A stretch of DNA of 64,000 nt from a virus (IMGVR_UViG_3300049434_000028:1-64000), one strand, 5' to 3'; numbered from the stretch's first letter, positions 6,782 through 46,323 are shown. Translations and numbers: made by a program. Notes: a model not told the origin generated them from the sequence alone.

Positions 6782-6814
6782 CGTGGTGCTCCTGGTCCGT
6801 GTCTGGGTGGTCGG

Positions 6815-7318
6815 TTACTTCCGTGCGTCGAAGGTGTGCGTGCGCCCCCCATCCACGACGGTGACCCGGTGACCCTTGCCGAGCTGGCGCGCCTTAGTAG
6901 CCGTGCCGTCGGCACGCGCCGCGGTGGCGCCGCCATGCGAGCTACCGGCCTGGATGAGCGGGTACCCGCAGTCGAAGCAGCGGGCCGCCGCCTCGATACG
7001 CAAGGGCATCCCGTTCTCGGTCCGGCGCTGGGCGAAGAAGTTCCCGCTGCCGCACTCGGGGCACGTCCCCGAGTCCTCCTTGACCTTCTTACTGCCCCCC
7101 GTGGACAGCGCCGCGTTCACCAGGGCCGTCATGACCCCGTCGTCGGCGATCGGCTGGCCGGTGTTGGCGTCGTAGCTCGTTGGCACGCTCTGCGGGGGTG
7201 GGGCCTGCTGCTGCGGGGGCTCCCGGTGCATCCCCGGCATGATCACGGAGGCCTGCTGACGCTGCGTCGGGGCAGAGTTGCCGCCGAGCTTGCGCGCCCA
7301 CCAGTCGCTACCACCCAT
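6815..7318 (-). CDS. zinc-ribbon protein
   Basis: CPECGSGNF...RCFDCGYP. Confidence 0.75.
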   Translation of the reverse strand: MGGSDWWARKLGGNSAPTQRQQASVIMPGMHREPPQQQAPPPQSVPTSYDANTGQPIADDGVMTALVNAALSTGGSKKVKEDSGTCPECGSGNFFAQRRTENGMPLRIEAAARCFDCGYPLIQAGSSHGGATAARADGTATKARQLGKGHRVTVVDGGRTHTFDARK

Positions 7319-7352
7319 GTCGTGTTCCCACCTGGTCCGTGTAATGCCCGGT

Positions 7353-9296
7353 CTAACCCTTAGCCTCGCTCCACCGCTGCACCACCTTGATGTCCGCCTC
7401 CAACGGCACCGGATGGATCAACTTCGCAATCTCCCAGCCGGTCATTGCCTCTTTGACGACATCAACCCCCTCCTTGATGAGGTCGTCCCTCACCGAGGTG
7501 ACCAGCTCGTCGTGAACCGTGAAGTTCATGACCATTCCCGGCCGCAATAGTGCATCCTCGCGCACGATGGCCAATTTCATCAAGTCCGCCGCCGAACCCT
7601 GAATCACTGCATTGACAGCCTGGCGCTCGGCGGCCATCCTCCTACCGAAACTGGAGCTGTTGATGTCCGGCAGCCGCCGCTTGCGGCCGAGCAACGTCTG
7701 CACGTATGCCGGACGGCGGCTGCGGCACCTCCGCACCACCGAGTCGCAGAACGCATACATGCCCGGCAGCATCTTTCGATGCGCACGCAGGAACTCCTCC
7801 GCGTGCTTCACGGTGACCCCGGACATGGACGCCACCTTCTCCACGCCAGCCCCGTAGGCCACGGCGAAGTTGGTGTTCTTCGAGACCGTGCGCTCGACCT
7901 TGGTGACGTCGTCCATGGACTTCTGGAGCAGCAACGAGGCGACGTACTGGTGGAAGTCCAGGCCCTCCTCGAACGCCGCCACGAGCCGCTTATCGCCGGA
8001 GTAGTAGGCCAGGATGCGGTACTCAACCTGGCTCCAGTCGGCCACGATCAGGGAGTGGCCAGGCTCGGCCACGAACAGCCCACGGATCCGCTGGCCCAGC
8101 TCTGTGTCCGGCCGCGGGATGTTCTGCACGTTGGGCTCGGAGCTGCTCATGCGCCCGGTGACCGCGCCGGTCTGCTTGAAGTTCGTGTGAATCCTGCCCG
8201 TGTCCGGGTTGTACGGCGGGGCATTGTTCCTGCTCTTGTCGGTCTTCTTGCGCTCGTTGTTGCCCAGGTAGCTCTTCACGTACGTGCTGGAGATCTTGTT
8301 GACCTCCTGGTACTCCATGAAGGTGTCGATCAGCGGATTCCCGATGTGGTGCTCCAACGCCTCCTTGTCGCAGCTCGGCGCACCGGTACCGGTGAACTTC
8401 TTCGGCCGGAGGCCCTGGCCACCGTCCCGCTTCTTGCCGTAGAAAACCTCGACCTTCTGCGGGTTGCTGTTGAAGTTCCACTGGCGGCCGACGACGCGGT
8501 AGAGGCGGCCGGTGATCTCGGTGAGCTGCTCGTCCAGGTCACGGTCCAGCTCACGCAGCGCGTCGATGTCGACGAGCGGCGAGCCCGCGGCCTCCATGCG
8601 GCACAGCGCGCCGAGCAAGTCCATCTCCAGCTCGAAGAGCTGCCAGAGCCCGCCACGGTGGAGCTGCGGCACGTACTTGTTCTTCAGCAGGTGCGTGTAC
8701 TTGGCGTCCAGGAAGCCGTAGTTGGCCGCGACCTTGAACGGGTACCTCTCAACCTCCTTGCCGACGCTCTTGTCGTACACGAAGCCGAAGTCCCGCTTCA
8801 CGACGTCGCCGAGCCGGTAGGTGTGGAAGTTCTCGTTGCACAAGTACGCCGCGACCATCGTGTCCCCGTACGGCGGGAGCGGGAAGTCGCCGTCGTAGTA
8901 CTTGGCGACGCTCTCCAGGTCGAACTTCAGGTTGTGGCCCCAGAGCCGCTGGTCCTCATCGCGCTCGAAGAACAACGGTTCCAGGATCTCGAACACGTCG
9001 CCGGGGTAGAGCTGCTCCGGCGCGGCATTGTAGAGCGGGATCTTAAACATCCGCGTCTTGCCGTCCTGGCCGACGCGTGGTTCCTTGCCGATGCCGATCT
9101 GACGCCCAATCGGATGCCCGAACGGAATGACATCCGCGCGTCCCTGCGCAGCCAGGCTGAGCCAGAACACCTGGTTGCGCCGGGGGTCCAGCCGGTACTC
9201 GCCCTTGGTCTCGGTGTCGTAGGTGATGTCCGGCTGGTCCAGGTAGAACTTGACGGCCTCGCGCAGCGTGCGCTTGTCCAGGATCGGCTTGGTCAC
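7353..9296 (-). CDS. polA: DNA polymerase, family A (3'-5' exonuclease + polymerase)
   Basis: DTET, HNLKFD and DTMVAAY exonuclease motifs; TGRMSSSEPNVQNIP; motif A ADWSQVEYR, motif B KNTNFAVAYG, motif C VHDEL. Start GTG 9296 (GTGA overlap). Confidence 0.96.
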   Translation of the reverse strand: MTKPILDKRTLREAVKFYLDQPDITYDTETKGEYRLDPRRNQVFWLSLAAQGRADVIPFGHPIGRQIGIGKEPRVGQDGKTRMFKIPLYNAAPEQLYPGDVFEILEPLFFERDEDQRLWGHNLKFDLESVAKYYDGDFPLPPYGDTMVAAYLCNENFHTYRLGDVVKRDFGFVYDKSVGKEVERYPFKVAANYGFLDAKYTHLLKNKYVPQLHRGGLWQLFELEMDLLGALCRMEAAGSPLVDIDALRELDRDLDEQLTEITGRLYRVVGRQWNFNSNPQKVEVFYGKKRDGGQGLRPKKFTGTGAPSCDKEALEHHIGNPLIDTFMEYQEVNKISSTYVKSYLGNNERKKTDKSRNNAPPYNPDTGRIHTNFKQTGAVTGRMSSSEPNVQNIPRPDTELGQRIRGLFVAEPGHSLIVADWSQVEYRILAYYSGDKRLVAAFEEGLDFHQYVASLLLQKSMDDVTKVERTVSKNTNFAVAYGAGVEKVASMSGVTVKHAEEFLRAHRKMLPGMYAFCDSVVRRCRSRRPAYVQTLLGRKRRLPDINSSSFGRRMAAERQAVNAVIQGSAADLMKLAIVREDALLRPGMVMNFTVHDELVTSVRDDLIKEGVDVVKEAMTGWEIAKLIHPVPLEADIKVVQRWSEAKG

Positions 9297-9670
9297 AGAC
9301 TGAGCCCAAGCTGCACCTGGGCCGTGACCACAATGACCTCCACGCTGTGCTGGCCGAACGGGGTGTCCAGGACGACGCGGTGCATGACTAGCGCCTCGCC
9401 TTCGGCCAGCTCTGATGTCGTCGGCTCGTTGTCGTCCGCCTCGGCGGTGCTGATGAAGATCGGACCGACCGGCATGTGCCCGCCCATGTGCGCGCGGCGC
9501 AGGCACTCGTCCCAGACCATCTGCTCGAACTCCGGGTGCAGGAGAAGCTGCTTGGCCGCGCGGAACCGCAACGTGAATGTTCCGTTCTCGACGATCTCCT
9601 CGTACTGAGGGTCCATCTGACGCTCCATCATGGAGTCCGCGGACAGCAGGGACCTTCGGCGTAGGGTCAC
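9293..9670 (-). CDS. hypothetical protein
   Basis: 125-aa ORF between SSB and polymerase; start uncertain. Confidence 0.55.
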   Translation of the reverse strand: MTLRRRSLLSADSMMERQMDPQYEEIVENGTFTLRFRAAKQLLLHPEFEQMVWDECLRRAHMGGHMPVGPIFISTAEADDNEPTTSELAEGEALVMHRVVLDTPFGQHSVEVIVVTAQVQLGLSL

Positions 9671-9699
9671 CTGCTGCCCGCGGGGTCTTGGGGGACTAC

Positions 9700-10701
9700 T
9701 TAATCGTCGTCATCCATGGCTGTGCGTGCAACGGCGTTCAGCTCCGCACGCGGCACGTACCGCACGTACTTGTCCTCGGTCACCATCTTGGAGTCGAACG
9801 CGTCCAGCTCGTGGTCCTTGAGCGGGGGGATCCCCCACTCCTCCTTCAGGTCACGCGTGCGCACTACGTCGATGTCGTAGGTGGTCGCGCCCTTGCCACC
9901 CTTCGGCTTGGTCTTGGAAACCGCGTAGTACTCCTTGCTCAGCGGGCCAGTCTTGGCGGCGGCCTTCTTCTCCAGGATCTGCGCGATACCCGGACCGCAC
10001 GCCCACACGAAGAGCTGGGGGTCGGCGTCCTCCTCCAGCAGCAACACGTTGAACGCACCCACCGCCCGCGGAGAGTCGCCCAGCTTGTCGCACAGCGGGC
10101 ACTTGGACTCCAGGCAGGTGTAGCTACGCAACCCCTTGGGCGTCATGATCCAGTGCTGCCCGAAACTCGCGAACGGCTCGTCGTCCAGGAACTTGATCAG
10201 GATCTGGTCGTCGTCCGGCACCTTGAGGTCATTGCTGAAGCTGCCCATGGTCTTTCGCTTCTTGTTGTACGTGTTCCAACCGGCCGAGGACTTCCGCTTG
10301 CGGGGCTCGTCGTCCTCGTCGTCCTCGTCTTCATCCTCGTCGTCTTCGTCATCCTCGTCGTCGTCCCGTGCACGGCGAGCCGGGCGCTTGGGCTCTGCAC
10401 GACCCCGAGAGCGGCTACGTGCCGGGGGCTCGTCCTCTTCGTCATCCTCGTCTTCATCGTCCTCGTCGGCGGCGGCACGGCCGCGACGGCGAGGGGGGTC
10501 CTCGTCCTCGTCGTCGTCCTTGGCGCGAGCACGCCGGGAGGACGCAGGAGCGGGCTCCGCGTCGCGCTCACGACGTCGCCGGGCCCGCGGGGTCTCCTCC
10601 TCGTCGTCGTCATCGTCCTCGACCGCTGGCTTGCGGTAACGGTCGGCGCTGGGTGCCGGACGATCGTCGCGGCTGCGGCGACGTGCGGGGGATGCCATCA
10701 A
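9700..10701 (-). CDS. gp32-like single-stranded DNA-binding protein with a long N-terminal mixed-charge disordered region
   Basis: IKFLD...QHWI...TC...CPLC...FNV...TTY core with H/C/C/C Zn ligands, acidic C-terminus; first ~140 aa are D/E and R blocks. Confidence 0.75.
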   Translation of the reverse strand: MMASPARRRSRDDRPAPSADRYRKPAVEDDDDDEEETPRARRRRERDAEPAPASSRRARAKDDDEDEDPPRRRGRAAADEDDEDEDDEEDEPPARSRSRGRAEPKRPARRARDDDEDDEDDEDEDEDDEDDEPRKRKSSAGWNTYNKKRKTMGSFSNDLKVPDDDQILIKFLDDEPFASFGQHWIMTPKGLRSYTCLESKCPLCDKLGDSPRAVGAFNVLLLEEDADPQLFVWACGPGIAQILEKKAAAKTGPLSKEYYAVSKTKPKGGKGATTYDIDVVRTRDLKEEWGIPPLKDHELDAFDSKMVTEDKYVRYVPRAELNAVARTAMDDDD

Positions 10702-10991
10702 GTTCTCCTCTTCCTGGTCCGTGAACGATGCTCCGTGAAGCTGTCCAACAGGACCGTCTGGTCTGCGGTGGTCAACTCGCGTGCTTCCTTGATCTCTCCG
10801 GCGAGCTGGCGGTCCAGGATCTCCATCACCTTGTCAGTGAGTTCCTGCACCAACTCGTCCACCGGGATGTCGTGCGCCTCCTCATCGGTGTACCCGAGGT
10901 CGCCGTGCTCCAGGGTGACCGTGCACCCGAACTGGAAGTGCTCATATTGGGACATATTCACCTTGAACTGTCGCGTTCGGCTAATCCGCAA
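10698..10991 (-). CDS. hypothetical protein
   Basis: TTG start, MRISRTRQFKVNMSQYEHF. Confidence 0.7.
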   Translation of the reverse strand: MRISRTRQFKVNMSQYEHFQFGCTVTLEHGDLGYTDEEAHDIPVDELVQELTDKVMEILDRQLAGEIKEARELTTADQTVLLDSFTEHRSRTRKRRT

Positions 10992-11436
10992 GGCGCACCC
11001 CCTTCGTCAACAGCGCGGTCACCCAGGTCTTGCTCACGCCGTACATGCGTGCTAGCTCAGCCTTCTGGCCCCGGACCCCGGTGTACGCAGCACGAATCTG
11101 CGCTACCTGCTCGTCCGTCAGCTTGTGCCTACCGTGCGCCTCGTTAGTCAGCCGAGGTACGTAATGGCGCTCCGGGTGCCGCGCCATCATGTCGGCGAAG
11201 TTGTCCGCGTGCGTGCCGAGAAGTAGGTGCGTCGACTCCCGGCAGGGCGGGTTGTCGCAGGTGTGCCGAACAAGCATGCCGTCTGGGACAGGCATCCCGT
11301 TCGCCTCCTCCCAAGCCATGACGTGCGCGCCGCGCACCTTCTTCTGCGCCGGATCCCACTGCTGGCCGTGACCGGTCTTCTTGCTGCAGAACCCGGTCCA
11401 GGGCAGGCATGGAGCGTCGGTGCGGCTGATCCTCAC
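10981..11436 (-). mobile_element. free-standing HNH homing endonuclease with C-terminal HTH
   Basis: CLPWTG...AH..AWE...VRHTCDNPPC...HLLLGTHADN..DM, followed by KLT..QV..IR...ELARMYGVS. Confidence 0.9.
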
Positions 11437-11903
11437 AGGCGGCCCTCCTTCTTCAACTGGCGGAACAGCTCGGTGACACGCTCACTGAACTGGGTGGCAC
11501 CGACATTTCTGCCGTCGAAGAGGCCCTCCTCCCGCGCGATGCGCCGCATGCCCTCCACCTGCGCCCGCGTCCAGAGCCTCCGGGAGCCCTTGATGGACAC
11601 CGCATTGATGCGAAACCGCGCCTGCGGGATGGTGCCGTACTCGATCCAGCGCCGGATGGTGTTCGACGACCGGCCGAGCGCCTGCGCCACCGCGCCCACG
11701 AAGAAGAACTCGACCAGCTCCCCGTCCACCTTCTGCATGTACGGCGAGGAGTCCCAGCGATCCTCCTCCGGCGGCGCCTCCGCGGCCTTGGCGGCCACTG
11801 CCTTGCGCTTGCGCGTGCTGCCGGGATAGTTGTCCCCCGCCAGCTCCGCGAACGCCGCCTCGACGCTGCTGGCTACTTCACCTCGCGGGGGACGAACGCC
11901 CAC
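11433..11903 (-). CDS. MerR-like HTH DNA-binding protein
   Basis: VGAVAQALGRSSNTIRRWIEYGTIP...RRLWT. Confidence 0.8.
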   Translation of the reverse strand: MGVRPPRGEVASSVEAAFAELAGDNYPGSTRKRKAVAAKAAEAPPEEDRWDSSPYMQKVDGELVEFFFVGAVAQALGRSSNTIRRWIEYGTIPQARFRINAVSIKGSRRLWTRAQVEGMRRIAREEGLFDGRNVGATQFSERVTELFRQLKKEGRL

Positions 11904-12415
11904 GACACCTCCTCGGCGAACATGGCGTCGATGTCATCGGCGGTGAGAGTCGGCTCGGGGGAGTCCTTCTCGCTGAAGTACAGCGCCATGATCTTGTCGT
12001 CCGACAGGCGCTCGGTGACGGTGACTACCTCGTCGTAGATACGCGCCTTCTTCAGCACCGCGATCACCAACGGCATCTTGTCGGCGTCGATCGTGATGTC
12101 GACATCCGTGCACGCCTCCAGGACGCCCTTGGCCTCCAGGATCTCGGTGGCCCTGTCAGGATCCAACAACACCTTTGCGCGCCGCTGCCTGCAGACCGCC
12201 GTGAAGCCGCCGATCGGCTCGTCGAACTCCAGCCACAGGGAGCCCTTGTCGTCCGGCTTCCCGGCCCGCTCCAGGATCCCCATCAGCTTCTTCTTCAACT
12301 CGCCGCTGCGCGACTGGATCGTCTTGATCATCGCGCGGTGACCGCCGAACTCCGTCAACAGCGGCGCCAACTCCGCAAGGGGGTCAGCCTTGGAACGCCT
12401 GGCAACGCGGGTCAT
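11873..12415 (-). CDS. hypothetical phage protein (first gene of the leftward operon)
   Basis: 180 aa, GGAGG SD; coiled coil followed by DDKGSLW. Confidence 0.8.
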   Translation of the reverse strand: MTRVARRSKADPLAELAPLLTEFGGHRAMIKTIQSRSGELKKKLMGILERAGKPDDKGSLWLEFDEPIGGFTAVCRQRRAKVLLDPDRATEILEAKGVLEACTDVDITIDADKMPLVIAVLKKARIYDEVVTVTERLSDDKIMALYFSEKDSPEPTLTADDIDAMFAEEVSWAFVPREVK

Positions 12416-12711
12416 CTGGGGTCCTCCGTGGTCCGTGCACTGGTCCGATCGGGTTACCTAACCACAGAGCACCGACAGTTTCGATGAGACACGCCAGACC
12501 GATTTCTGCTAGTTGCTCCCGCGGCCGATCAGTGCCAGGGTTGTACGGCACCCTCCCGTCGAGCCCAGAGACACCCGCTCGGCGAAGCACGGACCAGGTC
12601 ACCAGTCGGGGTCAAGATCCCGCCCCGACGAAGTGGGCACCGAACATGGCTGAGGGCCAGCGCGACGAACGCTGACCCTCATGACGCCGTGAAACGAGAC
12701 GAGTGGATTCT

Positions 12712-13656
12712 ATGGCATCACCAACGGGCGAGCGCAACACCATCCTCGTGTCGATCAAGAACGACTACCGGTTCGCCATGGTGCCGGACGCCCTGCTGGT
12801 CGACGGCGTATCCGACCGAGCCGTGCGCCTCTGGGCACTCCTCGCGCGAGCTGCCAGGGCCAATGCGTCCCCGACTCGTGCAGTCCTGGCCGAGAAGCTG
12901 GGTTGCTCTGTGGAGTCCATCGACCGCGCCGTAAAGGAGCTGGAGGCCCGTAGATGGCTGCAGCGCGTCCAACGCGGGCTCAACCGCGCGAACGAATACG
13001 TGCTCGACCCCACCCCCATACATGCGTCTGACGCCCCATCAATCGACTGGACGCCTCACGCGGGAGTCGTCACCCGTGACGACACCGGAGTCGTCACAGG
13101 TGCGGTCTCGGAGTCGTCACCCGTGACGACTCCCTCCTCTATAGAGAGAGGTTTAGAGAGAACTACTGCACCGGCCAAGAACAGGCCGGTGCGGCAACGC
13201 ACGAGCTGGGCCGAGAAGGAACCCGACGACAACGGCGAAGACGGCGGCGTTGCGCCGATCTCCGGCCGGACGAAGTCCAAGCCCCGGCGCAGGATCGGCG
13301 GACCGGACTCGGCCTCCGGCCTGGCGAAGACGTTCGAGGTGCTGGCTCGGGAGAGGTTCACCCGCAAGCAGCTCGCATTCGCGCAGTTCAACCAGGACGG
13401 CACGACCGGCGCGATCAACGCCTGGCTAGACGACGGCGTCTCCCCGGACACCGTGCGTGCAATGATCAAGGTGTTCCTGACCGAGCCGTTCCCCGAACGT
13501 GCACCGCTCTGGAAGACGTTCCTGGCCGCACGACACCGCCTCGCCGATCAGGCCCTGCAGGTCTCCAACGCTCAGCGCGACCCCGTGGAACGCTACAAGC
13601 GCAAGCCGACACCATCTGGATCACTGGACTACCGGGAGCGATTCCGCAATGGATGA
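12712..13656 (+). CDS. replication initiator (N-terminal winged HTH, lambda O/RepA-like layout)
   Basis: FAMVP...AVRLWALL...PTRAVLAEKLGCSVESIDRAVKELE..WL..R....N.Y; carries internal iterons and precedes a DnaC-like gene. Start ATG 12712 or GTG 12703. Confidence 0.8.
   Translation: MASPTGERNTILVSIKNDYRFAMVPDALLVDGVSDRAVRLWALLARAARANASPTRAVLAEKLGCSVESIDRAVKELEARRWLQRVQRGLNRANEYVLDPTPIHASDAPSIDWTPHAGVVTRDDTGVVTGAVSESSPVTTPSSIERGLERTTAPAKNRPVRQRTSWAEKEPDDNGEDGGVAPISGRTKSKPRRRIGGPDSASGLAKTFEVLARERFTRKQLAFAQFNQDGTTGAINAWLDDGVSPDTVRAMIKVFLTEPFPERAPLWKTFLAARHRLADQALQVSNAQRDPVERYKRKPTPSGSLDYRERFRNG
13063..13133 (+). repeat. three palindromic iterons (probable replication origin)
   Basis: GGAGTCGTCAC at 13063, 13087 and 13110; the third copy is a perfect inverted repeat GGAGTCGTCAC-CC-GTGACGACTCC, followed by a purine/AT-richer tract. 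Confidence 0.8.
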
Positions 13657-16459: not shown

Positions 16460-16460
16460 C

Positions 16461-20321: not shown

Positions 20322-20410
20322 CGTCTATCCCATAGGTGCACGCTTCACCCGGTAGGTTGACCCGCGGCGCACCATCCGGCACACCACACGGACCACGGAA
20401 TGAGGGACAT

Positions 20411-20701
20411 GTGAGCATCCTTGTCGCGGCGTTAGCTGCAGGGATCGGCACCACCCGGATCGTGGAGACGATCAAAGAGGCCCTTCCGATCATCCCACCA
20501 CCCGTCGCCAAGAGCACATTCGCAAGCGCCATTGCTGCAGCAGCCGGGGCGTCGTTGACGTCCGGTGATTGGCGTACACGCACACTGACGGGGCTGGGAG
20601 CCGCTGGAGTCGCCATGCTGGCGCACGAGGCTGCATCCCTGCTCCGCATGGTCACAGACCGCCAGAAGATCGTCGTCATGCGCGCTGCCGGTCAGCGCTA
20701 G
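20411..20701 (+). CDS. small membrane protein
   Basis: 96 aa with 2-3 hydrophobic segments; GAGG SD. Confidence 0.65.
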   Translation: MSILVAALAAGIGTTRIVETIKEALPIIPPPVAKSTFASAIAAAAGASLTSGDWRTRTLTGLGAAGVAMLAHEAASLLRMVTDRQKIVVMRAAGQR

Positions 20702-20717
20702 AAGAAGGAGCACACAC

Positions 20718-23500: not shown

Positions 23501-23541
23501 GGTGTGCTCCTTCGAGTCCGTGTGGTTGACCTTGTAAGAGA

Positions 23542-23590
23542 AGCGTACCCCCACGAGAACCCTTCGCGCAGCGTTTCTGCAGAACTACTT
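23542..23590 (-). promoter_or_regulatory. promoter with upstream AAGTAGTTCTGCAG
   Basis: CTGCGC-18-TACGCT. Confidence 0.55.
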
Positions 23591-23800
23591 GTCTCGGTCT
23601 AGACGGAACACATGCCCACACCGGTCCGGCCCGTACGCCGAGCGCGGATCCACAGGAGTTCCCCTGCACTCGTAGTCGGCGCTGGCGTAGGACGAGCACA
23701 GATGAACGCTGGGCTTCCCGCAGCGCACACACTCGACCACCTTCGGCCAGCCAAGCAGAGTGAACGCCGGGTCGCTGCCAAACGGCTCACCGAACTTCAT
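23585..23800 (-). CDS. small Cys-rich protein
   Basis: MKFGEPF...CVRC...C...CGH; ATGA-coupled to the recombinase. Confidence 0.6.
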   Translation of the reverse strand: MKFGEPFGSDPAFTLLGWPKVVECVRCGKPSVHLCSSYASADYECRGTPVDPRSAYGPDRCGHVFRLDRDK

Positions 23801-24612
23801 GCGGCGCTCCAGTAGTTGACCAGCGCGAGCGCCGGGGAACGCTGCAGGTTCCGACGACCACGGTCGTATCTCATGGTCATTTTCGGATCCCCGTGTCCGG
23901 CGAAGTCCTGAACGTCGCGGGTAGCTGCGCCCGCGTCGAGTGCGGCGGTGATGGCGGCGTGTCTGAGCGAGTGCGGGGTAATCCGATCGGCCTGCTCGAT
24001 GCCCGCAGCGACCGCCAGGCGCTGCACGAGCCGGAAGGCGGTGCTCTGGGCCATCGGGAACAGCAGGCCCTCGGTGACGCCCAGGGCGTCGATCGCGGCG
24101 GCGTCGGCCAGCGGGATGACGCGGACCTTGCCGCCCTTGCCGTGGATGCGCACGACGCGCATGCCCAGGTCGATCTCGATGTCCTCGGCGCGCAGGGCGA
24201 GCGCCTCGCCGACGCGACACGCGGTGTGCAACATGAGCGAGATCAGCGCGTAGGAGCGGGTGCCGTCGGCCTTGGCCGCCGCGAGCAGCGCCCGCGCCTC
24301 GTCCTGCGAGAGGCCGAGCGTCTGGCTGTCCTGGGAGACCTTGGGACGACGGACGTGCTCGGCCGGGTTGCGCTCCAGCATGTCCTCGGCCTGCGCGTAG
24401 GCGTAGAGGCCGGAGACCGCGGACAGGCGGCGGGCGATCGTGCTCGCGCTCAGCTCGCGGGCCTCCATGTCGCGCACGTAGGCGTTGATGTCGGAGCGGG
24501 TGGCGGTGAGCACGTCGGCAGTGAAGAAGGCCTGGAAGTCGGCCAAGTCCCGGCGGTACGCCTTCGCGGTGTTGCCCGCGTACCCGGCGAGGTAGTCGGC
24601 GACGATGTTCAT
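23797..24612 (-). CDS. XerC/D-like tyrosine recombinase (no arm-binding domain)
   Basis: NT..AY..DL, STIARRLSAVS..Y, CRVGE, GKGGK, HSLRH, AGH, MRY; ATG 24612. Confidence 0.92.
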   Translation of the reverse strand: MNIVADYLAGYAGNTAKAYRRDLADFQAFFTADVLTATRSDINAYVRDMEARELSASTIARRLSAVSGLYAYAQAEDMLERNPAEHVRRPKVSQDSQTLGLSQDEARALLAAAKADGTRSYALISLMLHTACRVGEALALRAEDIEIDLGMRVVRIHGKGGKVRVIPLADAAAIDALGVTEGLLFPMAQSTAFRLVQRLAVAAGIEQADRITPHSLRHAAITAALDAGAATRDVQDFAGHGDPKMTMRYDRGRRNLQRSPALALVNYWSAA

Positions 24613-24649
24613 GGAGTGCTCCGAATGCTTGGTCCGTGTTCCTGGGTCC

Positions 24650-24678
24650 ATCGTAGCAGGGTGTCCCCCCACCCGCAG
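24650..24678 (-). promoter_or_regulatory. promoter of the recombinase gene
   Basis: CTGCGG-17-TACGAT. Confidence 0.55.
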
Positions 24679-24775: not shown

Positions 24776-25108
24776 CTAGAGCTTCATCTTTCGGCCCGTG
24801 AACACGTCCACGATCTCCGCGCCCTCGCCGAACGCGGCGGTCATCTCGGCGCGCTCCTCGGCGCTGTAGCCGTGCTCCTGGCGGTAGGCGACGTACTCGC
24901 GGATCGCAGCGGCGGACTCCAGCTCGCGAGCTTGGATCGTGTTCGACAGGATCGTGTAGCCGATCCGACCCGCCTCGTGCCAGGACTCCAGCATGTCCGG
25001 GAACGGGCACCGGTCGTTGCTCTTCCAGCGAGCGACGAACCCGGCGTCGATGTACGCCTCCTTGAACATCTCGATGTTGCGGGCCTGCTCGCGCTGCTTC
25101 CAGTCCAT
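24776..25108 (-). CDS. hypothetical phage protein
   Basis: RWKSNDRCP..D.L...EERAEM.AAFG.G..IVDVFTG. Confidence 0.75.
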   Translation of the reverse strand: MDWKQREQARNIEMFKEAYIDAGFVARWKSNDRCPFPDMLESWHEAGRIGYTILSNTIQARELESAAAIREYVAYRQEHGYSAEERAEMTAAFGEGAEIVDVFTGRKMKL

Positions 25109-25155
25109 GATCTCTGCTCCGATGTGTGTGTCGTGGTCCGGGGTGGGAAGTTGAG

Positions 25156-25332
25156 TCAGCCGTTCGGGTACATGCTGGAATGCGGCTCGAAGTCCTCGGT
25201 CAACCGCTCCGGCATGTACTTGGCGATCCATGCGATCAGCTCGGCCTTTGTGGCCTGCGAGCGGGCGGGCATCCCATGGGCGAGGATGCGCAGGGTCTTC
25301 ACGGGCAGGGTATTCGGGTCGATATTCGCCAT
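25156..25332 (-). CDS. small Rho_N/HeH-like protein
   Basis: LPVKTLRILA.G...S.ATKAELIAWI. Confidence 0.6.
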   Translation of the reverse strand: MANIDPNTLPVKTLRILAHGMPARSQATKAELIAWIAKYMPERLTEDFEPHSSMYPNG

Positions 25333-25369
25333 GGTCTGCTCCGAGTGCGTGGTCTGGCTTCCTGATTCC

Positions 25370-25417
25370 ATTGTGCACCCACGCGCGGCCTGTGTCAGCG
25401 GAACTGCAGAACTACTT
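25370..25417 (-). promoter_or_regulatory. promoter with upstream AAGTAGTTCTGCAG
   Basis: CTGACA-17-CACAAT. Confidence 0.65.
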
Positions 25418-26032
25418 TTGTAAGCGAGGGAGGCGGTACTTGACCCGCTCGACAGCGTAGGCCTCGCGCAGGGCGCGGGCGGCATCGGCTCCAAGCCAGC
25501 GACGCACAAGGAGCATGTAGTAGTAGGCGAAGATCCGACCGTGCCCGTTCTCCGTCGTGCTGTGGGCGTGGTTGTGGCAGGTGGCCATGATGTGCGCCAG
25601 TTCGTGCAAGATAACCCACGGCTGCTTCATCGGGACGGCCCAGTCGGGCGCGTGGGCGAGCACGATCTCCGAAGAGCCCAGATGGATGTGGGGAGCACGA
25701 TCGCGATAGCCGGGCTTCCTGCGGACGGTCCCCACGTTCGCGTGCGCGCCATGTCCGCGCTTGGCGAAGACCCAGACACGCTTCGGTGGCTGCGGGGAGA
25801 CCAAGAATTGCTTGCCCTCTTTCTGCCAGGCGGGATCGCCCATCCACGACGGCGGACAGGTGCGTGCCCACCAGGAGCTGCGGGTGATGCGGTCGACGTA
25901 AATCTGCGCGGCCTTCTCGGTGCCGTCCAGCAACTCCACGGGGCACGCCTTGCGTGCGGCATCTTCGGCTGCGTACACGCGGTTGCCATAGCCGCGCTCC
26001 GTCAGTGTCTTGCGAGGGGAGTTCGTCTCCAT
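25412..26032 (-). CDS. TIGR04338/Rv0185-like HExxH metallohydrolase
   Basis: RVYAAE...WW...VILHELAH...HG..F...LV...G.DAA..LR. Confidence 0.8.
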   Translation of the reverse strand: METNSPRKTLTERGYGNRVYAAEDAARKACPVELLDGTEKAAQIYVDRITRSSWWARTCPPSWMGDPAWQKEGKQFLVSPQPPKRVWVFAKRGHGAHANVGTVRRKPGYRDRAPHIHLGSSEIVLAHAPDWAVPMKQPWVILHELAHIMATCHNHAHSTTENGHGRIFAYYYMLLVRRWLGADAARALREAYAVERVKYRLPRLQK

Positions 26033-26077
26033 CTGGTGCTCCGATTCGTGGTCCGTGTCACCCCCCGGCAGTGGGGG

Positions 26078-26127: not shown

Positions 26128-26661
26128 TTACTGACGTCCCGTCAGCTTCTCCCGCACCTCGTCCTCCCGAACGCTGAGCCAGACCTGCACTCCGGTTCCG
26201 TCGGTCTTGCGGAACGCGTTGCCGAGAGTCGCTGCGTTCTTGTCGTCGCGGACGTAGAACTCCTTCGCGCCGACGATGCGGGCGACGCGCATGGCGAGCT
26301 GGAAGTAGTCGGCCGGGTAGCCCTCGGCCTGCTCCAGCTTGTCGAGGCCCTTGGCCATCTTGCGCAGGTGCTTGACCATCGCCTCGGCCTGCGCCAGCTC
26401 GACGGAGTGCACGTTGCTGTAGCGGTGCGACGGCCCCCAGAGCACGGGGTAATCGATGGCGCTGCTCTCGTGGCCGAGCCAGGCGCGCACGGTGTAGTCG
26501 GCCAGCTCGTAGCCGGTGCCGCTCCAGCGGTCGGTGGCGCTGAAATTGAGCAGCGTGCCCTTGTCATCGACGTGGCAGAAGTACGCCACGATCTCGGTGG
26601 TGAACGTGTTGCGCTCGACCTGGAACATCATCACCGGGGTGCGCTTGGCGGGACTGGTCAT
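26128..26661 (-). CDS. hypothetical protein
   Basis: 177 aa, AAGGAG SD. Confidence 0.75.
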   Translation of the reverse strand: MTSPAKRTPVMMFQVERNTFTTEIVAYFCHVDDKGTLLNFSATDRWSGTGYELADYTVRAWLGHESSAIDYPVLWGPSHRYSNVHSVELAQAEAMVKHLRKMAKGLDKLEQAEGYPADYFQLAMRVARIVGAKEFYVRDDKNAATLGNAFRKTDGTGVQVWLSVREDEVREKLTGRQ

Positions 26662-26703
26662 GGCGGTTCTCCTTGTGATCCGAGAGTTGTGGTCCGAGAT
26701 GGG

Positions 26704-27189
26704 TCAGGACAGTTGGTCGAGCAGGTCTTCGACGGCCGCACGCGCCTGGCGCAGGGCGTCCAATGCAGTAGAACTGTGCGTCTCAGCAATCAGATCGAGC
26801 GGGATGAGCTGGAGGTGGTGCAGGGCGATAGCCGCCTCACGGTAGGACCGAACGGGGGGCTTGGTGTGCTCGGGGAGCTTCACGTCGGCGAGCAGGGCGC
26901 TAGCAGCAGCACCCTTACGCTCGGTGAGGACACGGTCAATGGCGTCCATGCGCTCGTGGTGCGCGGCGACCTCGGCGGCCAACACCTCAGCCTTGCGGAT
27001 CGCGACCAGCGTGTCGTAGCCCTTGGGGGTGATGGTCGCGTAGTACCCGGTCCCCATCTGGGTGGCCAGCGTCACGAGGCGACGACGGGCGAGCGCCCTG
27101 TAGGTCGGGTAATCCCGGCCGCACTCAACGGTGTTGCCCTGGCTGATGTAGTTGAGGAGCCTGTGCTGGCGGTCGTTGAGCTTGTCCAT
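26704..27189 (-). CDS. hypothetical protein (possible winged-helix N-terminus)
   Basis: MDKLNDRQHRLL...TYRALARRRLV...ITPKG; GGAGG SD. Confidence 0.7.
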   Translation of the reverse strand: MDKLNDRQHRLLNYISQGNTVECGRDYPTYRALARRRLVTLATQMGTGYYATITPKGYDTLVAIRKAEVLAAEVAAHHERMDAIDRVLTERKGAAASALLADVKLPEHTKPPVRSYREAAIALHHLQLIPLDLIAETHSSTALDALRQARAAVEDLLDQLS

Positions 27190-27222
27190 GATGTCCTCCG
27201 AGCGGTGTGGTCCGGTCCCCTT

Positions 27223-27262
27223 AGTGTGGGGGTACACCGCTCGGTGCGCAAGCAGAACTGCA
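27223..27262 (-). promoter_or_regulatory. promoter with upstream TGCAG
   Basis: TTGCGC-17-CACACT. Confidence 0.6.
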
Positions 27263-41930: not shown

Positions 41931-41957
41931 TTCTGCTCCTAGTGCTCGTGTCGAGTG

Positions 41958-42536
41958 TTACTTGATCGTCGGTGCGTCTGAGGTGTACGGGTCGGCCGCG
42001 TAGCTCGGCTTCCATCCCTCGTGCTGGATGACCATCTGTTCCATGAGGATGCCGTTGCCACCGGCATCGAGGTCGCTAAAGCTGATGCTGCCCGGCCAGG
42101 CGTTGTAGACCTTGAACCGCAGCTTCACCGGCACCTTGTTGTTCAGGGTGTACGGGTGGGCGAGCACCGAGATGTCGATGTTCGACCGGAAGTCCTTGCC
42201 CTTCTTGGGCGCGTACGAGCCACCGCCCTGGATGACCGAGAAGATCTCGCGCACCCACTCGTACGCATGCGGGGTGTTCACCATGACGCCGCGGGACAGC
42301 GTGATCGGCGTGAACTCCGACTGCCCCGGCATCTTCTGGGGCGTCAGGTTGTAGCCACCCTGGCGATACGCGATGACCTGCGTCTCGACGTTCAGTCCGG
42401 CACAATTCATGAAGCCCAGCTCAATGAGCTTCCTGTTGCCACCGGCAGTGACGTGGTTGATGTTGACTATGAAGCGGAAGTTGCGCAGCGGATCGGTCGC
42501 GATCGAAGACCGCGAGTCCTTGACTGTCTCTGGCAT
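41958..42536 (-). CDS. tail tube protein (T4 gp19-like)
   Basis: DPLRNFRF, GF....GL, YRQGG, KMPGQ..F.PITLSRG, YNAWP, HEG. Confidence 0.93.
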   Translation of the reverse strand: MPETVKDSRSSIATDPLRNFRFIVNINHVTAGGNRKLIELGFMNCAGLNVETQVIAYRQGGYNLTPQKMPGQSEFTPITLSRGVMVNTPHAYEWVREIFSVIQGGGSYAPKKGKDFRSNIDISVLAHPYTLNNKVPVKLRFKVYNAWPGSISFSDLDAGGNGILMEQMVIQHEGWKPSYAADPYTSDAPTIK

Positions 42537-44083: not shown

Positions 44084-44154
44084 CGGGTAGGTCTCCTAAA
44101 TCGCGAGGATGAGAACGTGGAGACCGAGTAGTAATCCGAGTGATTGTCCGTCAG

Positions 44155-44844
44155 CTAGAACCCGTGCACCACCAAGGAGCCACTCCCTCGGAACTTCACG
44201 ACGTTCGGGAGTTCGAGCAGGAAATCGAAGATCTCGATCGCGATGTCCGAGGTCGCAATGAAGCGGGACAGCTCGGCCGGGAAGTACTCCGACGACATCT
44301 GCACCGTCCACGCCTTGCGGAAGATGCGCTTGTTCGGGTCGCCGGGATCCGGCTGATCGGCCGACTGCGGACCGTTGATGAGATCGAGCCGACGGACGGA
44401 GTGGTCATCGCCTACCTCGTTCGTGCCCACCATGGGGACCGCGCCGAAGCGTTCCACCAACCTGGTGGTCATCATCGACGCCATGATCTGGCGGTCGTGC
44501 TGGACGAAGCGAGCAAAGCTCGTGATCTGGTAGGTGAACAGCAGCGGGATCGGCCACTCGGTCACGGCTCGGTCGTGCAGCACCCGTGTCGGCGGCATGT
44601 ACTCCTCGCCAGCCCTGAAGCGGTAGCTGCCGCGGGTCTCCCGCTCGGGGTCGCGGGCGATGTTGAGCAGGTCGATCGTGATGTAGGGGTACTCCCGGCG
44701 CTGCGCCTCCTGCTCCGGCAGCCGGAAGTAGACCTTGACCTCGCGCCCGACTGCGCCGGAGCTGCCGTCGCGCACCGTCATTCCCTGCAGGTACGACTTC
44801 AGCGCCGCGTCCTCACGAAGGATCAGGCCGTCGTTGGCGCTCAC
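44155..44844 (-). CDS. tail terminator / completion protein
   Basis: EDAALK..LQG.TV, V.FR.PE.E....YPYITIDL; immediately upstream of the sheath gene. Confidence 0.7.
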   Translation of the reverse strand: MSANDGLILREDAALKSYLQGMTVRDGSSGAVGREVKVYFRLPEQEAQRREYPYITIDLLNIARDPERETRGSYRFRAGEEYMPPTRVLHDRAVTEWPIPLLFTYQITSFARFVQHDRQIMASMMTTRLVERFGAVPMVGTNEVGDDHSVRRLDLINGPQSADQPDPGDPNKRIFRKAWTVQMSSEYFPAELSRFIATSDIAIEIFDFLLELPNVVKFRGSGSLVVHGF

Positions 44845-45209
44845 AATGCCCCCCAGATACGACGCGCGAGCGCGGCGCTGAACTCCTCGTTGTAGTGCTT
44901 CTGGTTGCGGGCCAGGGTGGCGCGCATCCAGCCCTTGGGAGCGCCTACCAGGGTGCCCCACTCCAGGTCGTACGCCTCGCGAGCGCTGAGCCCGGTGAGC
45001 ACACCGACCACTGCCTCGCCGCGATCCAGGTACAGCCCGATGTCCGAGCGCGTCTCGTCGCTCATCCCCGCGGCCTTGGCCGCCGCGTCCAGGTCGGCCA
45101 GCAGCGATCCGTGCGCGGCCTCGCCTGCGGCGTCCCAGATGAGCTTGCCGAGATCCACCTTGCGCTTCGCGAACGCCTGCAGCTCCGGCGAGCTGATGGA
45201 GAACCCCAT
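44841..45209 (-). CDS. neck/tail completion-like protein
   Basis: AAGGAGG SD; A.DLEWGT...P..WMR. Confidence 0.65.
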   Translation of the reverse strand: MGFSISSPELQAFAKRKVDLGKLIWDAAGEAAHGSLLADLDAAAKAAGMSDETRSDIGLYLDRGEAVVGVLTGLSAREAYDLEWGTLVGAPKGWMRATLARNQKHYNEEFSAALARRIWGAL

Positions 45210-45387
45210 GGCTCGGCAGACCTCCTTGCAAGCGTGCGGCGAAGTGGTGCGGCGTGACATCGACCCGGCGTGTGCGATCGACGTCAAAGCCACGCTAGCC
45301 CGTGCGCACAGCTCCGCGCGAGAGAGGTTCTACGCGAGCTTGTATGTACGCGGGGGCCCGGCTACCCCCAAGTCCGGAGGTAAAATC

Positions 45388-45795
45388 TCAGGCGCGCTTG
45401 CGCGGGTACGCGCGGACGACGGGCTCGCCCTTACGCCAGGCAGCTTCCTTATGCAAGCCAGGCTGCTGACTCGCGAGCTTGCCAACGGCGGCCCTGGCGT
45501 CGGGGGACATGTCGTCACGGTGATGCAGGAAGGGCATGCCGGTCTCCTTGTGCACGCCCTCGTAGAGCGCGGCGGCCACACCCTGACGCCGATGCTCGGG
45601 ATCCACGGCAACGTACTCCACGCCGACGTGACCTTTCTGCTCGGGAGTCATGAACCTCTGGCTGCGGTCGAACCGCATCGTGCCGATAACGTCACCGGTC
45701 TCCGGGTGCCGAGCCGTGGCCAGCTCACCGCCCCAGGGGTGCGGGCCCTCCATCGCGACCTGCCACTGCCTACCAAGGTTGTCGGAAGCGCTCAC
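45388..45795 (-). CDS. GNAT-family acetyltransferase-like protein
   Basis: VEYVAVDPEHRRQGVAAALY (acetyl-CoA-binding motif A). Confidence 0.8.
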   Translation of the reverse strand: MSASDNLGRQWQVAMEGPHPWGGELATARHPETGDVIGTMRFDRSQRFMTPEQKGHVGVEYVAVDPEHRRQGVAAALYEGVHKETGMPFLHHRDDMSPDARAAVGKLASQQPGLHKEAAWRKGEPVVRAYPRKRA

Positions 45796-46103
45796 TTCCA
45801 GCCGAGCTTCCCGGTGAGGAACTCCATGCCGTGCTTCTTGGCCGCCGTCATCGTCTTGAACGGCGGGGGCGTGTACCGGATCTCCTTCGCGGTACCGTCC
45901 GGGCCCTGGTACCTGCCGATCATGTGGAACTCTCCTGGACCCTTACGCGCGACGGACACCTCGTGCGACTTGGGATCCCAGCCATTCGGACCCAGCCGCC
46001 GGTCGGCCCACTCCGGGCTGTCCTTGCCCCACATCGGCTCTTCCTGACGCCAATCGGTGATCTTCGGCTGGAACTGCTCGCCCAGGTGCTCGTCCGCGCT
46101 CAC
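45792..46103 (-). CDS. hypothetical protein
   Basis: 103 aa, GTGA-coupled at both ends. Confidence 0.75.
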   Translation of the reverse strand: MSADEHLGEQFQPKITDWRQEEPMWGKDSPEWADRRLGPNGWDPKSHEVSVARKGPGEFHMIGRYQGPDGTAKEIRYTPPPFKTMTAAKKHGMEFLTGKLGWK

Positions 46104-46234
46104 GGCGTGCTCGGGCTCTCAATCGCCCGCACGGGCGTCTTGGCCAGGCTGCGCTGGTACAGGACCATGCTGCGGTTGGCCTTGTACACGTCCGGGCCGA
46201 ACTGCTGAGGCTGGAGGTTGTCCGCTGCTGCCAT
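46100..46234 (-). CDS. 44-aa hypothetical protein (probably leaderless)
   Basis: MAAADNLQPQQFGPDVYK...; TACGCT -10 box 7 nt upstream of ATG; GTGA-coupled to the next gene. Confidence 0.65.
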   Translation of the reverse strand: MAAADNLQPQQFGPDVYKANRSMVLYQRSLAKTPVRAIESPSTP

Positions 46235-46323
46235 GCCGCTCAGCGTAACGGCGCGAAGGCCTGCGGTGGGAGAGTCCCGGCGTTACCCTGCAGGCACCGG
46301 ACCACTACGACACGGAGCACCCC

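What the first reader, a model, noticed from the sequence alone, without database searches (positions are those of the whole stretch)
6793..46318. CGGACCA box upstream of about a dozen non-structural start codons
Seen on the coding strand, about 10-35 nt before the start: recA (6793), zinc-ribbon gene (7333), SSB (10715), first leftward gene (12429 and 12441), membrane gene (20389), recombinase (24630), 25134, 26049, 26690, 27208, and the lone plus-strand gene (46298). It also occurs in the long initiator leader (12590). Variants: CAGACCA (25350) and CGGACTC (near 23515 and 23300). It is often ACACGGACCA and often followed by a second GGA element, CGGAGCA, serving as the SD. It is always on the sense strand and lies downstream of the predicted -10 boxes, so it is probably read as RNA. 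Established analogies: mycobacteriophage cluster K start-associated sequences, CsrA tandem-GGA sites, T4 RegA/RegB. Inference: a phage-wide post-transcriptional regulon.
Basis: partly seen in the sequence, partly recalled or inferred. Interest (0 to 1): 0.8.

Follow-up and report, generated by a model that had tools for sequence, protein, structure and literature searches.

The report
Start-linked CGGACCA leader box in phage
A 103-kb GC-rich phage of an unknown actinobacterial-type host puts the same short sequence, CGGACCA, 11-28 bases before the start codon of about twenty mostly non-structural genes. This is a real, phage-private control signal of the known but still unexplained "start-associated sequence" kind.

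Summary
CGGACCA is not enriched in the window overall (22 copies against 16 expected). Its placement, however, is far from random. In the whole 102,797-bp genome, 19 of 42 copies lie on the sense strand within 50 nt of 18 predicted starts, and 4 more are intergenic. It is the most enriched 7-mer before start codons (p about 3e-14). Composition-matched shuffles give 1.3 windows with the box, against 18 observed. The box is sharply defined (a-C-A/T-CGGACCA-G/C-G), and one-mismatch variants are barely used. It lies 11-28 nt before the start, upstream of the ribosome-binding site. It is often paired with a second half-box, CGGAGCA, that overlaps that site. -10-like hexamers end 8-13 nt upstream of the box at several sites.

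The box is private to this phage. Distant relatives (Streptomyces phage GiJojo and an IMG/VR relative) show only ordinary Shine-Dalgarno enrichment, and five actinobacterial genomes hold the box at control level.

The mechanism is unproven. I favour an mRNA-leader operator for an unidentified factor (about 0.45). A DNA operator of the stoperator type is a serious rival. No CsrA, RegA, NusG or sigma homolog is present, and the box has no conserved 16S complement. This scan has noted similar start-linked boxes in other phages.

The parts
6793..6799 (-). Box (ACACGGACCAGG), abutting GGAGCA, 11 nt before the GTG of recA (5684-6781)
   Evidence: RecA Pfam 2.4e-50
7333..7339 (-). Box (ACACGGACCAGG), 14 nt before the ATG of a 167-aa zinc-ribbon protein (6815-7318)
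10715..10721 (-). Box, 16 nt before the ATG of the SSB-like gene (9700-10698). It lies inside the last codons of the upstream gene.
   Evidence: homology to the GiJojo SSB, E 6e-11
12429..12447 (-). Tandem boxes (12441 and 12429), 25 and 13 nt before the first leftward gene (11873-12415, 180 aa, function unknown)
   Evidence: homologs listed; the fold search was uninformative
12590..12596 (+). Box in the long leader of the rightward replication operon, 115 nt before the called start at 12712. It is not start-proximal.
20389..20395 (+). Box (ACACGGACCA), 15 nt before the GTG of a 96-aa hydrophobic protein (20411-20701)
24617..24636 (-). Box (24630-24636) - N6 - half-box CGGAGCA (24617-24623) - N4 - ATG of a tyrosine recombinase (23797-24612)
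24640..24674 (-). Promoter-like unit: GGGTGGGGGGACACCC, then 3 nt, then TACGAT. The hexamer ends 13 nt upstream of the 24630 box.
25115..25140 (-). Box (25134-25140) - N12 - CGGAGCA (25115-25121) - N6 - ATG of a 110-aa protein (24776-25108)
25337..25398 (-). Sigma-70-like promoter CTGACA-17-CACAAT (25398-25370), then the variant box CAGACCA (25350-25356) at about +7, then N6, CGGAGCA, N4 and the ATG of a 58-aa protein (25156-25332)
26037..26055 (-). Box (26049-26055) - N5 - CGGAGCA (26037-26043) - N4 - ATG. The corrected gene is 25412-26032 (206 aa, with an HExxH motif).
26690..26696 (-). Box, 28 nt before the ATG of a 177-aa protein (26128-26661). It is followed by CGGATCA and then AAGGAG.
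27208..27214 (-). Box - N7 - CGGAGGA - N5 - ATG of a 161-aa protein (26704-27189)
46298..46319 (+). Box (46298-46304) - N8 - CGGAGCA (46313-46319) - N4 - ATG of the lone plus-strand 84-aa membrane-like gene (46324-46578). TACCCT ends 8 nt upstream of the box.

Best explanation
CGGACCA (fuller form aC[A/T]CGGACCA[G/C]G) is a phage-private cis-regulatory box. It lies in the 5' leaders of about 22 genes, most of them early-type or non-structural. These include recA, the SSB-like gene, a tyrosine recombinase and many small orphan genes.

I think it is most likely read in the mRNA. An as yet unidentified sequence-specific factor, either a phage protein or a phage RNA, would bind the box. In about half of the genes it would also bind the related half-box CGGAGCA that overlaps a weak four-base Shine-Dalgarno site. 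This would set translation or message stability for the whole gene set together, working like T4 RegA or CsrA-type operators but without their proteins.

Shown here: the box, its statistics, its orientation, its position, its pairing with the half-box, and its privacy to this phage.
Inferred: that it is transcribed, that a factor binds it, and which way the effect goes.
For: - Enrichment and exactness: it is the top-enriched 7-mer before starts (p 3e-14). It is found in 18 windows against 1.3 in composition-matched shuffles. All seven positions are fixed, and one-mismatch variants are hardly used.
- Tied to the start codon, not merely intergenic: the distance is 11-28 nt, and 12 of 15 boxes in long gaps lie within 28 nt (p 3e-5). 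One copy is kept inside the upstream gene's coding sequence, at the right distance from the SSB-like start.
- Oriented with transcription: 14 of 15 copies.
- Second half-box: CGGAGCA occurs in 5 of 18 box genes against 1 of 152 others (p 4e-5). A non-complementary C precedes GGAG in 10 of 17 box genes against 9 of 54 (p 0.0014). Conservation therefore goes beyond what pairing with rRNA needs.
- The box-to-half-box spacing varies from 7 to 19 nt start to start (contexts). This suits flexible RNA better than a rigid DNA-bound dimer.
- Probably transcribed: TANNNT ends 8-13 nt upstream of the box at 5 of 25 sites (p 1.6e-4), and the only sigma-70-type promoter found puts the 25350 variant at about +7.
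- Not a promoter of its own: no conserved element lies at a fixed distance on either side. Well-placed Shine-Dalgarno sites begin right after the box in several genes.
- Copies also occur in 33-42-nt gaps inside operons (6793, 7333, 26690).
- Private to the phage: the same method gives only Shine-Dalgarno words in GiJojo and in the IMG/VR relative G001. ACACGGACCA is at control level in five actinobacterial genomes.
Against: - There are no transcript data and no mapped start sites. No binding factor was found: CsrA, RegA, NusG and sigma-70 region 2 are absent, and most phage proteins have no family match.
- The box is not held in a consistent RNA structure.
- Orientation bias and intergenic placement are also seen for DNA stoperators.
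- Where a -10-like hexamer is present, the box falls at about +1 to +7. This is also a classic operator position on DNA.
- Conservation could not be tested in close relatives.
- My gene calls are home-made, so single starts may be wrong.
Confidence: 0.45

Rival explanations
1. The box is a DNA operator of the stoperator type. A phage repressor would bind the asymmetric double-stranded site just downstream of promoters and in short gaps within operons. It would block promoter escape or elongation in an orientation-dependent way.
For: - Cluster A mycobacteriophage repressors bind more than 20 asymmetric 13-mers, in promoters and in short intergenic gaps, and these sites are oriented with transcription (PMC9283540).
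- Here the box lies 8-13 nt after -10-like hexamers at about 10 sites, that is at about +1 to +7.
- The phage encodes several HTH proteins (11433-11903, 72544-72771, 73180-73416) and a tyrosine recombinase, so a repressor-based lifestyle is possible.
Against: - The box is tied to the start codon and to an SD-overlapping half-box at variable spacing. A roadblock on DNA does not need either.
- It is nearly absent from the 43-kb virion block (2 of 51 genes), whereas stoperators cover both arms of the genome.
- The 19 further exact 7-mers inside genes, on both strands, would also be bound unless the flanking bases decide.
Confidence: 0.25
2. The box pairs with a phage-encoded RNA. The one reversed full-consensus copy, at genome 77294-77305, would supply an anti-box (CCUGGUCCGUGU) in a hairpin loop on the locally transcribed minus strand. 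This RNA would then pair with all box-bearing leaders. Alternatively, the plus strand there would give a box-bearing decoy RNA.
For: - The exact 12-mer ACACGGACCAGG occurs four times. Three copies are start-linked. The fourth has no start codon 11-28 nt downstream and faces against both neighbouring genes.
- On the minus strand it sits in the 7-nt loop of a 16-bp hairpin (-17.4 kcal/mol, z -2.0).
- Earlier follow-ups in this scan reported the same arrangement in other phages. That is a lead only.
Against: - The hairpin's z-score is modest, and 8 of 200 shuffles fold as well.
- No promoter or terminator defines a small RNA there. There is no Rfam match and no conservation data.
- Only three to eight leaders would form more than 9-10 base pairs with it.
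Confidence: 0.12
3. The box is a promoter element for dedicated transcription. It would be recognised by a phage-modified RNA polymerase or an alternative sigma factor, in the manner of a T4 late or middle promoter box, with transcripts starting just downstream of it.
For: - A single box of 9-10 informative positions (about 15 bits) is enough to specify about 23 sites in 103 kb.
- It occurs in every large divergent intergenic region but one.
Against: - No second element lies at a fixed distance.
- Starts 5-8 nt after the box would cut off the Shine-Dalgarno sites that abut it at 6793, 10715, 12429, 93430 and 96826. With distances of 11-28 nt the messages would be neither leaderless nor properly leadered.
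- No sigma-70 region 2 is encoded. There is only one weak region 4-like match, E 0.005.
Confidence: 0.08
4. The box is a translational enhancer that pairs with host 16S rRNA outside the anti-Shine-Dalgarno tail.
For: It lies just upstream of weak four-base Shine-Dalgarno sites in C/A-rich leaders with little structure.
Against: The complement UGGUCCG is found in only 1 of 50 actinobacterial 16S genes, at a non-conserved place. The G-U variants are not conserved either. The host is unknown, so this does not fully exclude the idea.
Confidence: 0.04

Closest known systems
Start-associated sequences (SAS/ESAS) of Cluster K mycobacteriophages (Pope et al. 2011, PMC3203893)
   Same: - A short asymmetric repeat with about 11-19 (here about 23) copies per genome and one orientation.
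- It lies just before the start codons of non-structural genes and is biased to ATG starts (15 of 17 against 65%).
- It is conserved at positions that cannot pair with 16S rRNA.
- It is private to the phage and rare in host-type genomes.
- Its function is unknown. As of 2025 it was still untested (PMC12699233).
   Different: - The sequence is unrelated (CGGACCA against GGGATAGGAGCCC).
- It is 7-10 nt long, not 13.
- It lies upstream of the Shine-Dalgarno site, 11-28 nt from the start, and does not occupy the site 3-7 nt from the start.
- It is accompanied by a second related half-box over the Shine-Dalgarno site, and not by 17-bp inverted repeats.
- The phage is an unrelated 103-kb myovirus-type phage (portal 55% identical to Streptomyces phage GiJojo).
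Stoperators of Cluster A mycobacteriophages (L5 gp71-type repressors; PMC9283540)
   Same: Many asymmetric sites in promoters and short intergenic gaps, oriented with transcription.
   Different: - Stoperators are 13-mers on DNA, spread over both genome arms including the virion genes, and are not tied to the start codon.
- Here the box is start-linked, almost absent from the virion block, and paired with a half-box that overlaps the Shine-Dalgarno site.
CsrA/RsmA operators
   Same: - The ACA-N-GGA core resembles the CsrA SELEX consensus (this is from my own knowledge).
- There are two GGA sites at variable spacing, and the second lies over the Shine-Dalgarno site.
   Different: - No CsrA gene is present in the phage.
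- The GGA is not held in hairpin loops.
- All seven bases are fixed, which is far stricter than CsrA sites.
T4 RegA (translational repressor) and RegB (endoribonuclease cutting GGAG in early leaders)
   Same: Control of a dispersed set of early messages through their ribosome-binding regions, after transcription.
   Different: - There is no RegA homolog, and RegB was not searched for.
- T4 sites are degenerate (RegA) or only four bases long (RegB), whereas this is an exact 7-mer upstream of the Shine-Dalgarno site.
PeSL promoter-early stem-loop cassettes of T4-type phages
   Same: Four copies of a repeated promoter unit (GGGTGGGGGGACACCC plus a -10 hexamer, followed by the box) stand before separate small genes.
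   Different: Only 4 of about 23 boxes carry this unit. The other boxes share nothing beyond 9-10 nt.

Membership tests
Cluster K start-associated sequences (SAS) | 13-bp consensus GGGATAGGAGCCC with at most 2 mismatches | tested here: not met
   The motif is aC[A/T]CGGACCA[G/C]G. It is unrelated to the consensus given in PMC3203893.
Cluster K start-associated sequences (SAS) | Occupies the ribosome-binding position, 3-7 bp from the start codon | tested here: not met
   The box ends 11-28 nt before the start, and a separate GGAG lies between them.
Cluster K start-associated sequences (SAS) | Asymmetric, in one orientation, before non-structural genes, with ATG-biased starts | tested here: met
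   - 14 of 15 copies are oriented with transcription (p 5e-4).
- 16 of 18 box genes lie outside the virion block (p 0.05).
- 15 of 17 box genes start with ATG against 99 of 152 others (p 0.04).
Cluster K start-associated sequences (SAS) | Private to the phage group and essentially absent from host genomes | tested here: inconclusive
   The box is absent as a start-linked motif from GiJojo and G001. ACACGGACCA is at control level in five actinobacterial genomes. The true host is unknown, and close relatives could not be fetched.
CsrA/Rsm regulon | A CsrA-family protein is present | tested here: not met
   PF02599 gives no match at E <= 1 in the phage. The host was not testable.
CsrA/Rsm regulon | GGA presented in hairpin loops | tested here: not met
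   The mean unpaired probability is 0.53 for the box against 0.48 for its flanks, and there is no shared hairpin.
CsrA/Rsm regulon | Two GGA sites, one overlapping the Shine-Dalgarno site | tested here: met
   A CGGA-type second site over the Shine-Dalgarno site is present in about 12 of about 22 genes.
Stoperator system (Cluster A mycobacteriophages) | Asymmetric sites oriented with transcription, in promoters and short intergenic gaps | tested here: met
Stoperator system (Cluster A mycobacteriophages) | Sites spread over the whole genome, including the virion operons | tested here: not met
   Only 2 of 51 genes in the block 27.9-71.3 kb carry the box.
Stoperator system (Cluster A mycobacteriophages) | A monomeric two-domain immunity repressor that binds the site | not tested
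   I ran no search with an L5 gp71-type repressor. HTH proteins are present but unassigned.
T4 RegA regulon | A RegA (PF01818) translational repressor is encoded | tested here: not met
   No match at E <= 1.

The most novel reading that the evidence does not exclude
The phage runs a private riboregulatory circuit. A bipartite leader operator (CGGACCA plus the SD-overlapping CGGAGCA) on about 22 messages would be read by one trans-acting RNA. Its recognition loop would be the reversed full-consensus copy in the hairpin at 77.29-77.31 kb (anti-box CCUGGUCCGUGU). One small RNA would then time the translation of recombination genes and orphan early genes together. This would also offer a testable mechanism for the long-unexplained start-associated sequences of other actinophages.
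Probability: 0.12. Interest if true: 0.8.

Novelty: new variant of a known kind. Interest (0 to 1): 0.55.

Why it matters
Start-associated sequences were described in 2011. According to the 2025 paper read here, their role in transcription and translation still awaits experimental test (PMC12699233).

This phage offers a cleaner case:
- The box is an exact 7-mer, and it is physically separate from the Shine-Dalgarno site. It can therefore be mutated without destroying ribosome binding.
- It comes with a second half-box, a set of matched promoter units, and one reversed copy in a hairpin.

If the box is an RNA operator, it defines a new sequence-specific regulator of translation or message stability in phages of GC-rich hosts. 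It would also group recA, SSB, a recombinase and about 15 orphan genes into one co-regulated set, which gives a first functional handle on those orphans. If it is a DNA site, it extends stoperator-like silencing beyond Cluster A mycobacteriophages.

Tried and rejected
- Chance or composition: rejected.
- Shared motif in relatives: the same k-mer method gives only Shine-Dalgarno words in Streptomyces phage GiJojo (portal 55% identical) and in the 100-kb IMG/VR relative G001. L043 and L039 gave nothing.
- Pattern ACACGGACCA-N3-14-CGGAGCA in IMG/VR: 24 contigs with one hit each, which is chance level.
- Apparent conserved copies in relatives turned out to be coding sequence: L109-type contigs encode ...RGP... 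and L139 encodes ...FTDQD....
- Pairing with 16S rRNA: no conserved complement in 50 actinobacterial 16S genes.
- Host-type motif: at control level in five actinobacterial genomes.
- Trans-factor candidates: CsrA, NusG, sigma-70 region 2 and RegA are absent. The SpoVS/Alba-superfamily protein at 1469-1792 is conserved in GiJojo, BRock and BCD7. GiJojo lacks the box, so SpoVS is not specific to the box system.
- The 180-aa first leftward gene: a good model (pLDDT 85), but no informative fold match.
- A shared RNA hairpin around the box: none.
- Rfam families and tRNAs: none.
- The variant CGGACTC: at chance level.
- The CTGCAG palindrome as a general operator: only mild non-coding excess (11 of 81).

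Full report
**What the sequence is.** The window is the first 64 kb of a complete 102,797-bp virus record with direct terminal repeats and 65.5% G+C. It encodes RecA, a family A DNA polymerase, a WhiB-domain fusion, HNH nucleases, a tyrosine recombinase, a SpoVS homolog and a long block of virion genes. Its nearest named relatives are the Streptomyces myoviruses GiJojo, BRock, Alone3 and LuckySocke (portal 55% identical, RecA 39%). IMG/VR holds low-GC relatives with portals 62-64% identical. It has no tRNA genes and no Rfam family match. The host is unknown; an actinobacterium is likely from the composition and the relatives.

**Checking the observation.** The window total of 22 is not above chance (16.1 +/- 4.1), and nine in-window copies lie inside genes on either strand. 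The signal is in the placement.

I called 170 genes with a self-trained codon model and ranked all 7-mers by enrichment in the 50 nt before starts on the sense strand. CGGACCA ranks first: 17 of 42 genome copies fall in 3.6% of the sequence space (p 3e-14). After correcting two starts, 19 copies precede 18 genes, 4 more are intergenic, 11 are sense in coding sequence and 8 are antisense in coding sequence. Dinucleotide-preserving shuffles of the upstream windows give 1.3 +/- 1.2 windows with the box (maximum 7 of 2000), against 18 observed. No 7-mer of any kind exceeds 10 windows in shuffled sets.

**Anatomy of the box.**
- The logo is a-C-(A/T)-CGGACCA-(G/C)-G, about 15 bits. No conserved position lies at a fixed distance on either side.
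- One-mismatch variants are hardly used before starts. The exceptions are CAGACCA at 25350, CGGACCC at two sites near 94.26 and 96.22 kb, and CGAACCA near 100.9 kb. CGGACTC is at chance level.
- The box ends 11-28 nt before the start. In gaps of at least 59 nt, 12 of 15 boxes lie within 28 nt of the start (p 3e-5).
- In gaps between co-directional genes, 14 of 15 copies point with transcription (p 5e-4).
- Box genes use ATG in 15 of 17 cases, against 65% elsewhere (p 0.04).
- 16 of 18 box genes lie outside the virion block (p 0.05).
- One copy (10715) sits inside the last codons of the upstream gene, at the usual distance from the SSB-like start.

**A second half-box.** CGGAGCA lies within 25 nt of the start in 5 of 18 box genes against 1 of 152 others, and that one gene carries the CAGACCA variant (p 4e-5). 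A C precedes GGAG in 10 of 17 box genes against 9 of 54 (p 0.0014). Non-box genes prefer AGGAG, which matches the anti-Shine-Dalgarno tail. Box genes therefore have a weak four-base Shine-Dalgarno site inside a conserved CGGAGCA(C). The same reasoning led Pope et al. to separate SAS from a plain ribosome-binding site. There are two layouts: CGGACCA directly abutting GGAG or GGAA, and CGGACCA-N5-13-CGGAG(C/G)A-N3-6-ATG. The start-to-start spacing of the two boxes varies from 7 to 19 nt.

**Relation to promoters.** TANNNT hexamers end 8-13 nt upstream of the box at 5 of 25 sites (p 1.6e-4 against the rate in upstream regions), and NANNNT hexamers do so at about six more. The only sigma-70-type promoter that the scanner finds between 5.5 and 25.4 kb (CTGACA-17-CACAAT) ends 13 nt before the 25350 variant. 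Four sites share a longer unit: GGGTGGGGGGACACCC in either orientation, then 3-4 nt, then TACGAT, TACGGT, TAAGGT or TATGGT, then 9-22 nt, then the box. Where a promoter can be guessed, the box therefore begins at about +1 to +16 of the message. Other copies (6793, 7333, 26690) lie in 33-42-nt gaps inside operons, with no -10-like hexamer in range.

**Structure.** Folding 87-nt windows shows no shared hairpin. The box is slightly more open than its flanks (0.53 against 0.48).

**Privacy to this phage.** The same pipeline gives only Shine-Dalgarno words in GiJojo (AAGGAGA) and in the 100-kb IMG/VR relative G001 (TAAGGAG). This also serves as a positive control for the method. G001 has three copies of the 7-mer in all. 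A bipartite pattern scan of IMG/VR returned 24 contigs with one hit each. Two apparent conserved copies in relatives proved to be coding sequence. ACACGGACCA occurs 8 times in this 103-kb phage (sites) but only 1-17 times in each of five actinobacterial genomes of 4-12 Mb, the same as a reversed-pattern control. Closer relatives do exist: 13 proteins are 51-80% identical to the first leftward gene, on contigs of up to 80 kb, mostly from Logan. Conservation of the box across close relatives is therefore untested.

**Mechanism.** I tested and set aside five ideas:
- Pairing with 16S rRNA: the complement occurs in 1 of 50 actinobacterial 16S genes, at a non-conserved place.
- A CsrA, RegA, NusG-like or sigma factor encoded by the phage: none is present.
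- The SpoVS/Alba-superfamily protein (nucleic-acid binding is predicted for this family in PMC2732212 and PMC11621453): it is conserved in relatives, and GiJojo lacks the box.
- A promoter role: the Shine-Dalgarno sites abut the box, nothing lies at a fixed distance, and the spacing to the start fits neither leaderless nor leadered transcripts starting after the box.
- A fold-based function for the 180-aa first leftward gene: the model was good but matched nothing informative.

What remains is a linear, exact recognition site in the leader. The tie to the start codon, the half-box over the Shine-Dalgarno site at variable spacing, and the copies inside operons favour reading in RNA (0.45). In that case a factor would bind the box and the ribosome-binding region and set translation or stability for the whole gene set.

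The main rival is a stoperator-like DNA operator (0.25). Stoperators show that orientation with transcription does not prove an RNA element, and the +1 to +7 position is also typical of DNA operators.

**A lead from earlier notes of this scan.** I looked for a reversed copy. The exact 12-mer ACACGGACCAGG occurs four times. Three copies are start-linked. The fourth (genome 77294-77305, plus strand) lies between two minus-strand genes and has no start codon at the usual distance. On the minus strand it reads CCUGGUCCGUGU directly before the AUG of gene 77021-77293. There it forms the 7-nt loop of a 16-bp hairpin (-17.4 kcal/mol, z -2.0). On the plus strand the box sits in the same loop and is followed by a hairpin with a UUCG tetraloop. 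This could be an antisense anti-box or a decoy. The fold statistics are modest and nothing shows that it is expressed (0.12).

**Comparison and novelty.** The box works like a start-associated sequence, but it is not a member of the Cluster K SAS family: the sequence, the length and the position relative to the Shine-Dalgarno site all differ. Several follow-ups in this scan have described similar private start-linked boxes in other uncultured phages, so the kind is recurrent. This one is a new variant, marked by an exact 7-mer upstream of the Shine-Dalgarno site, a related half-box over it, and one reversed hairpin copy.

**Limits.** The gene calls are my own. All promoter and start-site statements are predictions. 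The host is unknown.

Noticed in passing
L137:13278-13400 (genome 77278-77400), beyond the window: The only full-consensus copy (ACACGGACCAGG) that is not followed by a start codon faces against both neighbouring genes. It sits in the 7-nt loop of a 16-bp hairpin that also buries the AUG of gene 77021-77293. On the plus strand a hairpin with a UUCG tetraloop follows. It could be an anti-box or a decoy RNA.
   Followed up: partly
window 24659-24674 (-); also genome 96864-96879 (-), 94292-94307 (+) and 96243-96258 (+): The 16-bp G-rich element GGGTGGGGGGACACCC has outer arms GGGTG/CACCC that form an inverted repeat. It occurs in either orientation 3-4 nt upstream of TACGAT, TACGGT, TAAGGT or TATGGT. 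It looks like a repeated promoter with an operator at the -35 position, and each copy is followed by the box.
   Followed up: partly
window 1469-1792 (-): [quoted passage not shown] It is conserved in Streptomyces phages GiJojo and BRock, Bacillus phage BCD7 and others, and its role in phages is unknown.
   Followed up: partly
window 25412-26032 (-) and genome 95305-96195 (-): The box and half-box point to start codons other than those of a naive longest or best-scoring call: 26032 in place of 26086, and 96195 in place of 96237. The earlier 96237 'start' lies inside a TATGGT -10-like hexamer.
   Followed up: yes
window 23575-23584 and 25402-25411; genome 72873-72882: A repeat AAGTAG-TTCTGCAG-(AA/TT)-N-CGCTG, with a palindromic core TTCTGCAGAA, lies in non-coding DNA upstream of small genes. 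CTGCAG overall is only mildly enriched in non-coding DNA (11 of 81 copies).
   Followed up: partly
genome 72544-73416 (L137:8544-9416): A divergent pair of small genes looks like a genetic switch. A 75-aa HTH protein is on the minus strand, and 74-aa and 78-aa proteins are on the plus strand (the latter has a weak sigma-70 region 4/HTH match). The 187-nt gap between them has a box on each strand.
   Followed up: no
window 27189-27240 (-): At the 27208 site a 10-bp long-range stem (CCGAGCGGTG...CACCGCTCGG) encloses the box in its loop and runs up to the Shine-Dalgarno site. None of the other sites shows this.
   Followed up: no
window 9700-10698 (-): The SSB-like protein has a roughly 140-residue, extremely acidic and basic low-complexity N-terminus (runs of D/E and R) ahead of a gp32-like zinc-containing core. 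That core is homologous to the GiJojo SSB (E 6e-11). The low-complexity part produced a spurious megablast hit to a ThyX gene of Mycobacterium phage Phabba.
   Followed up: partly
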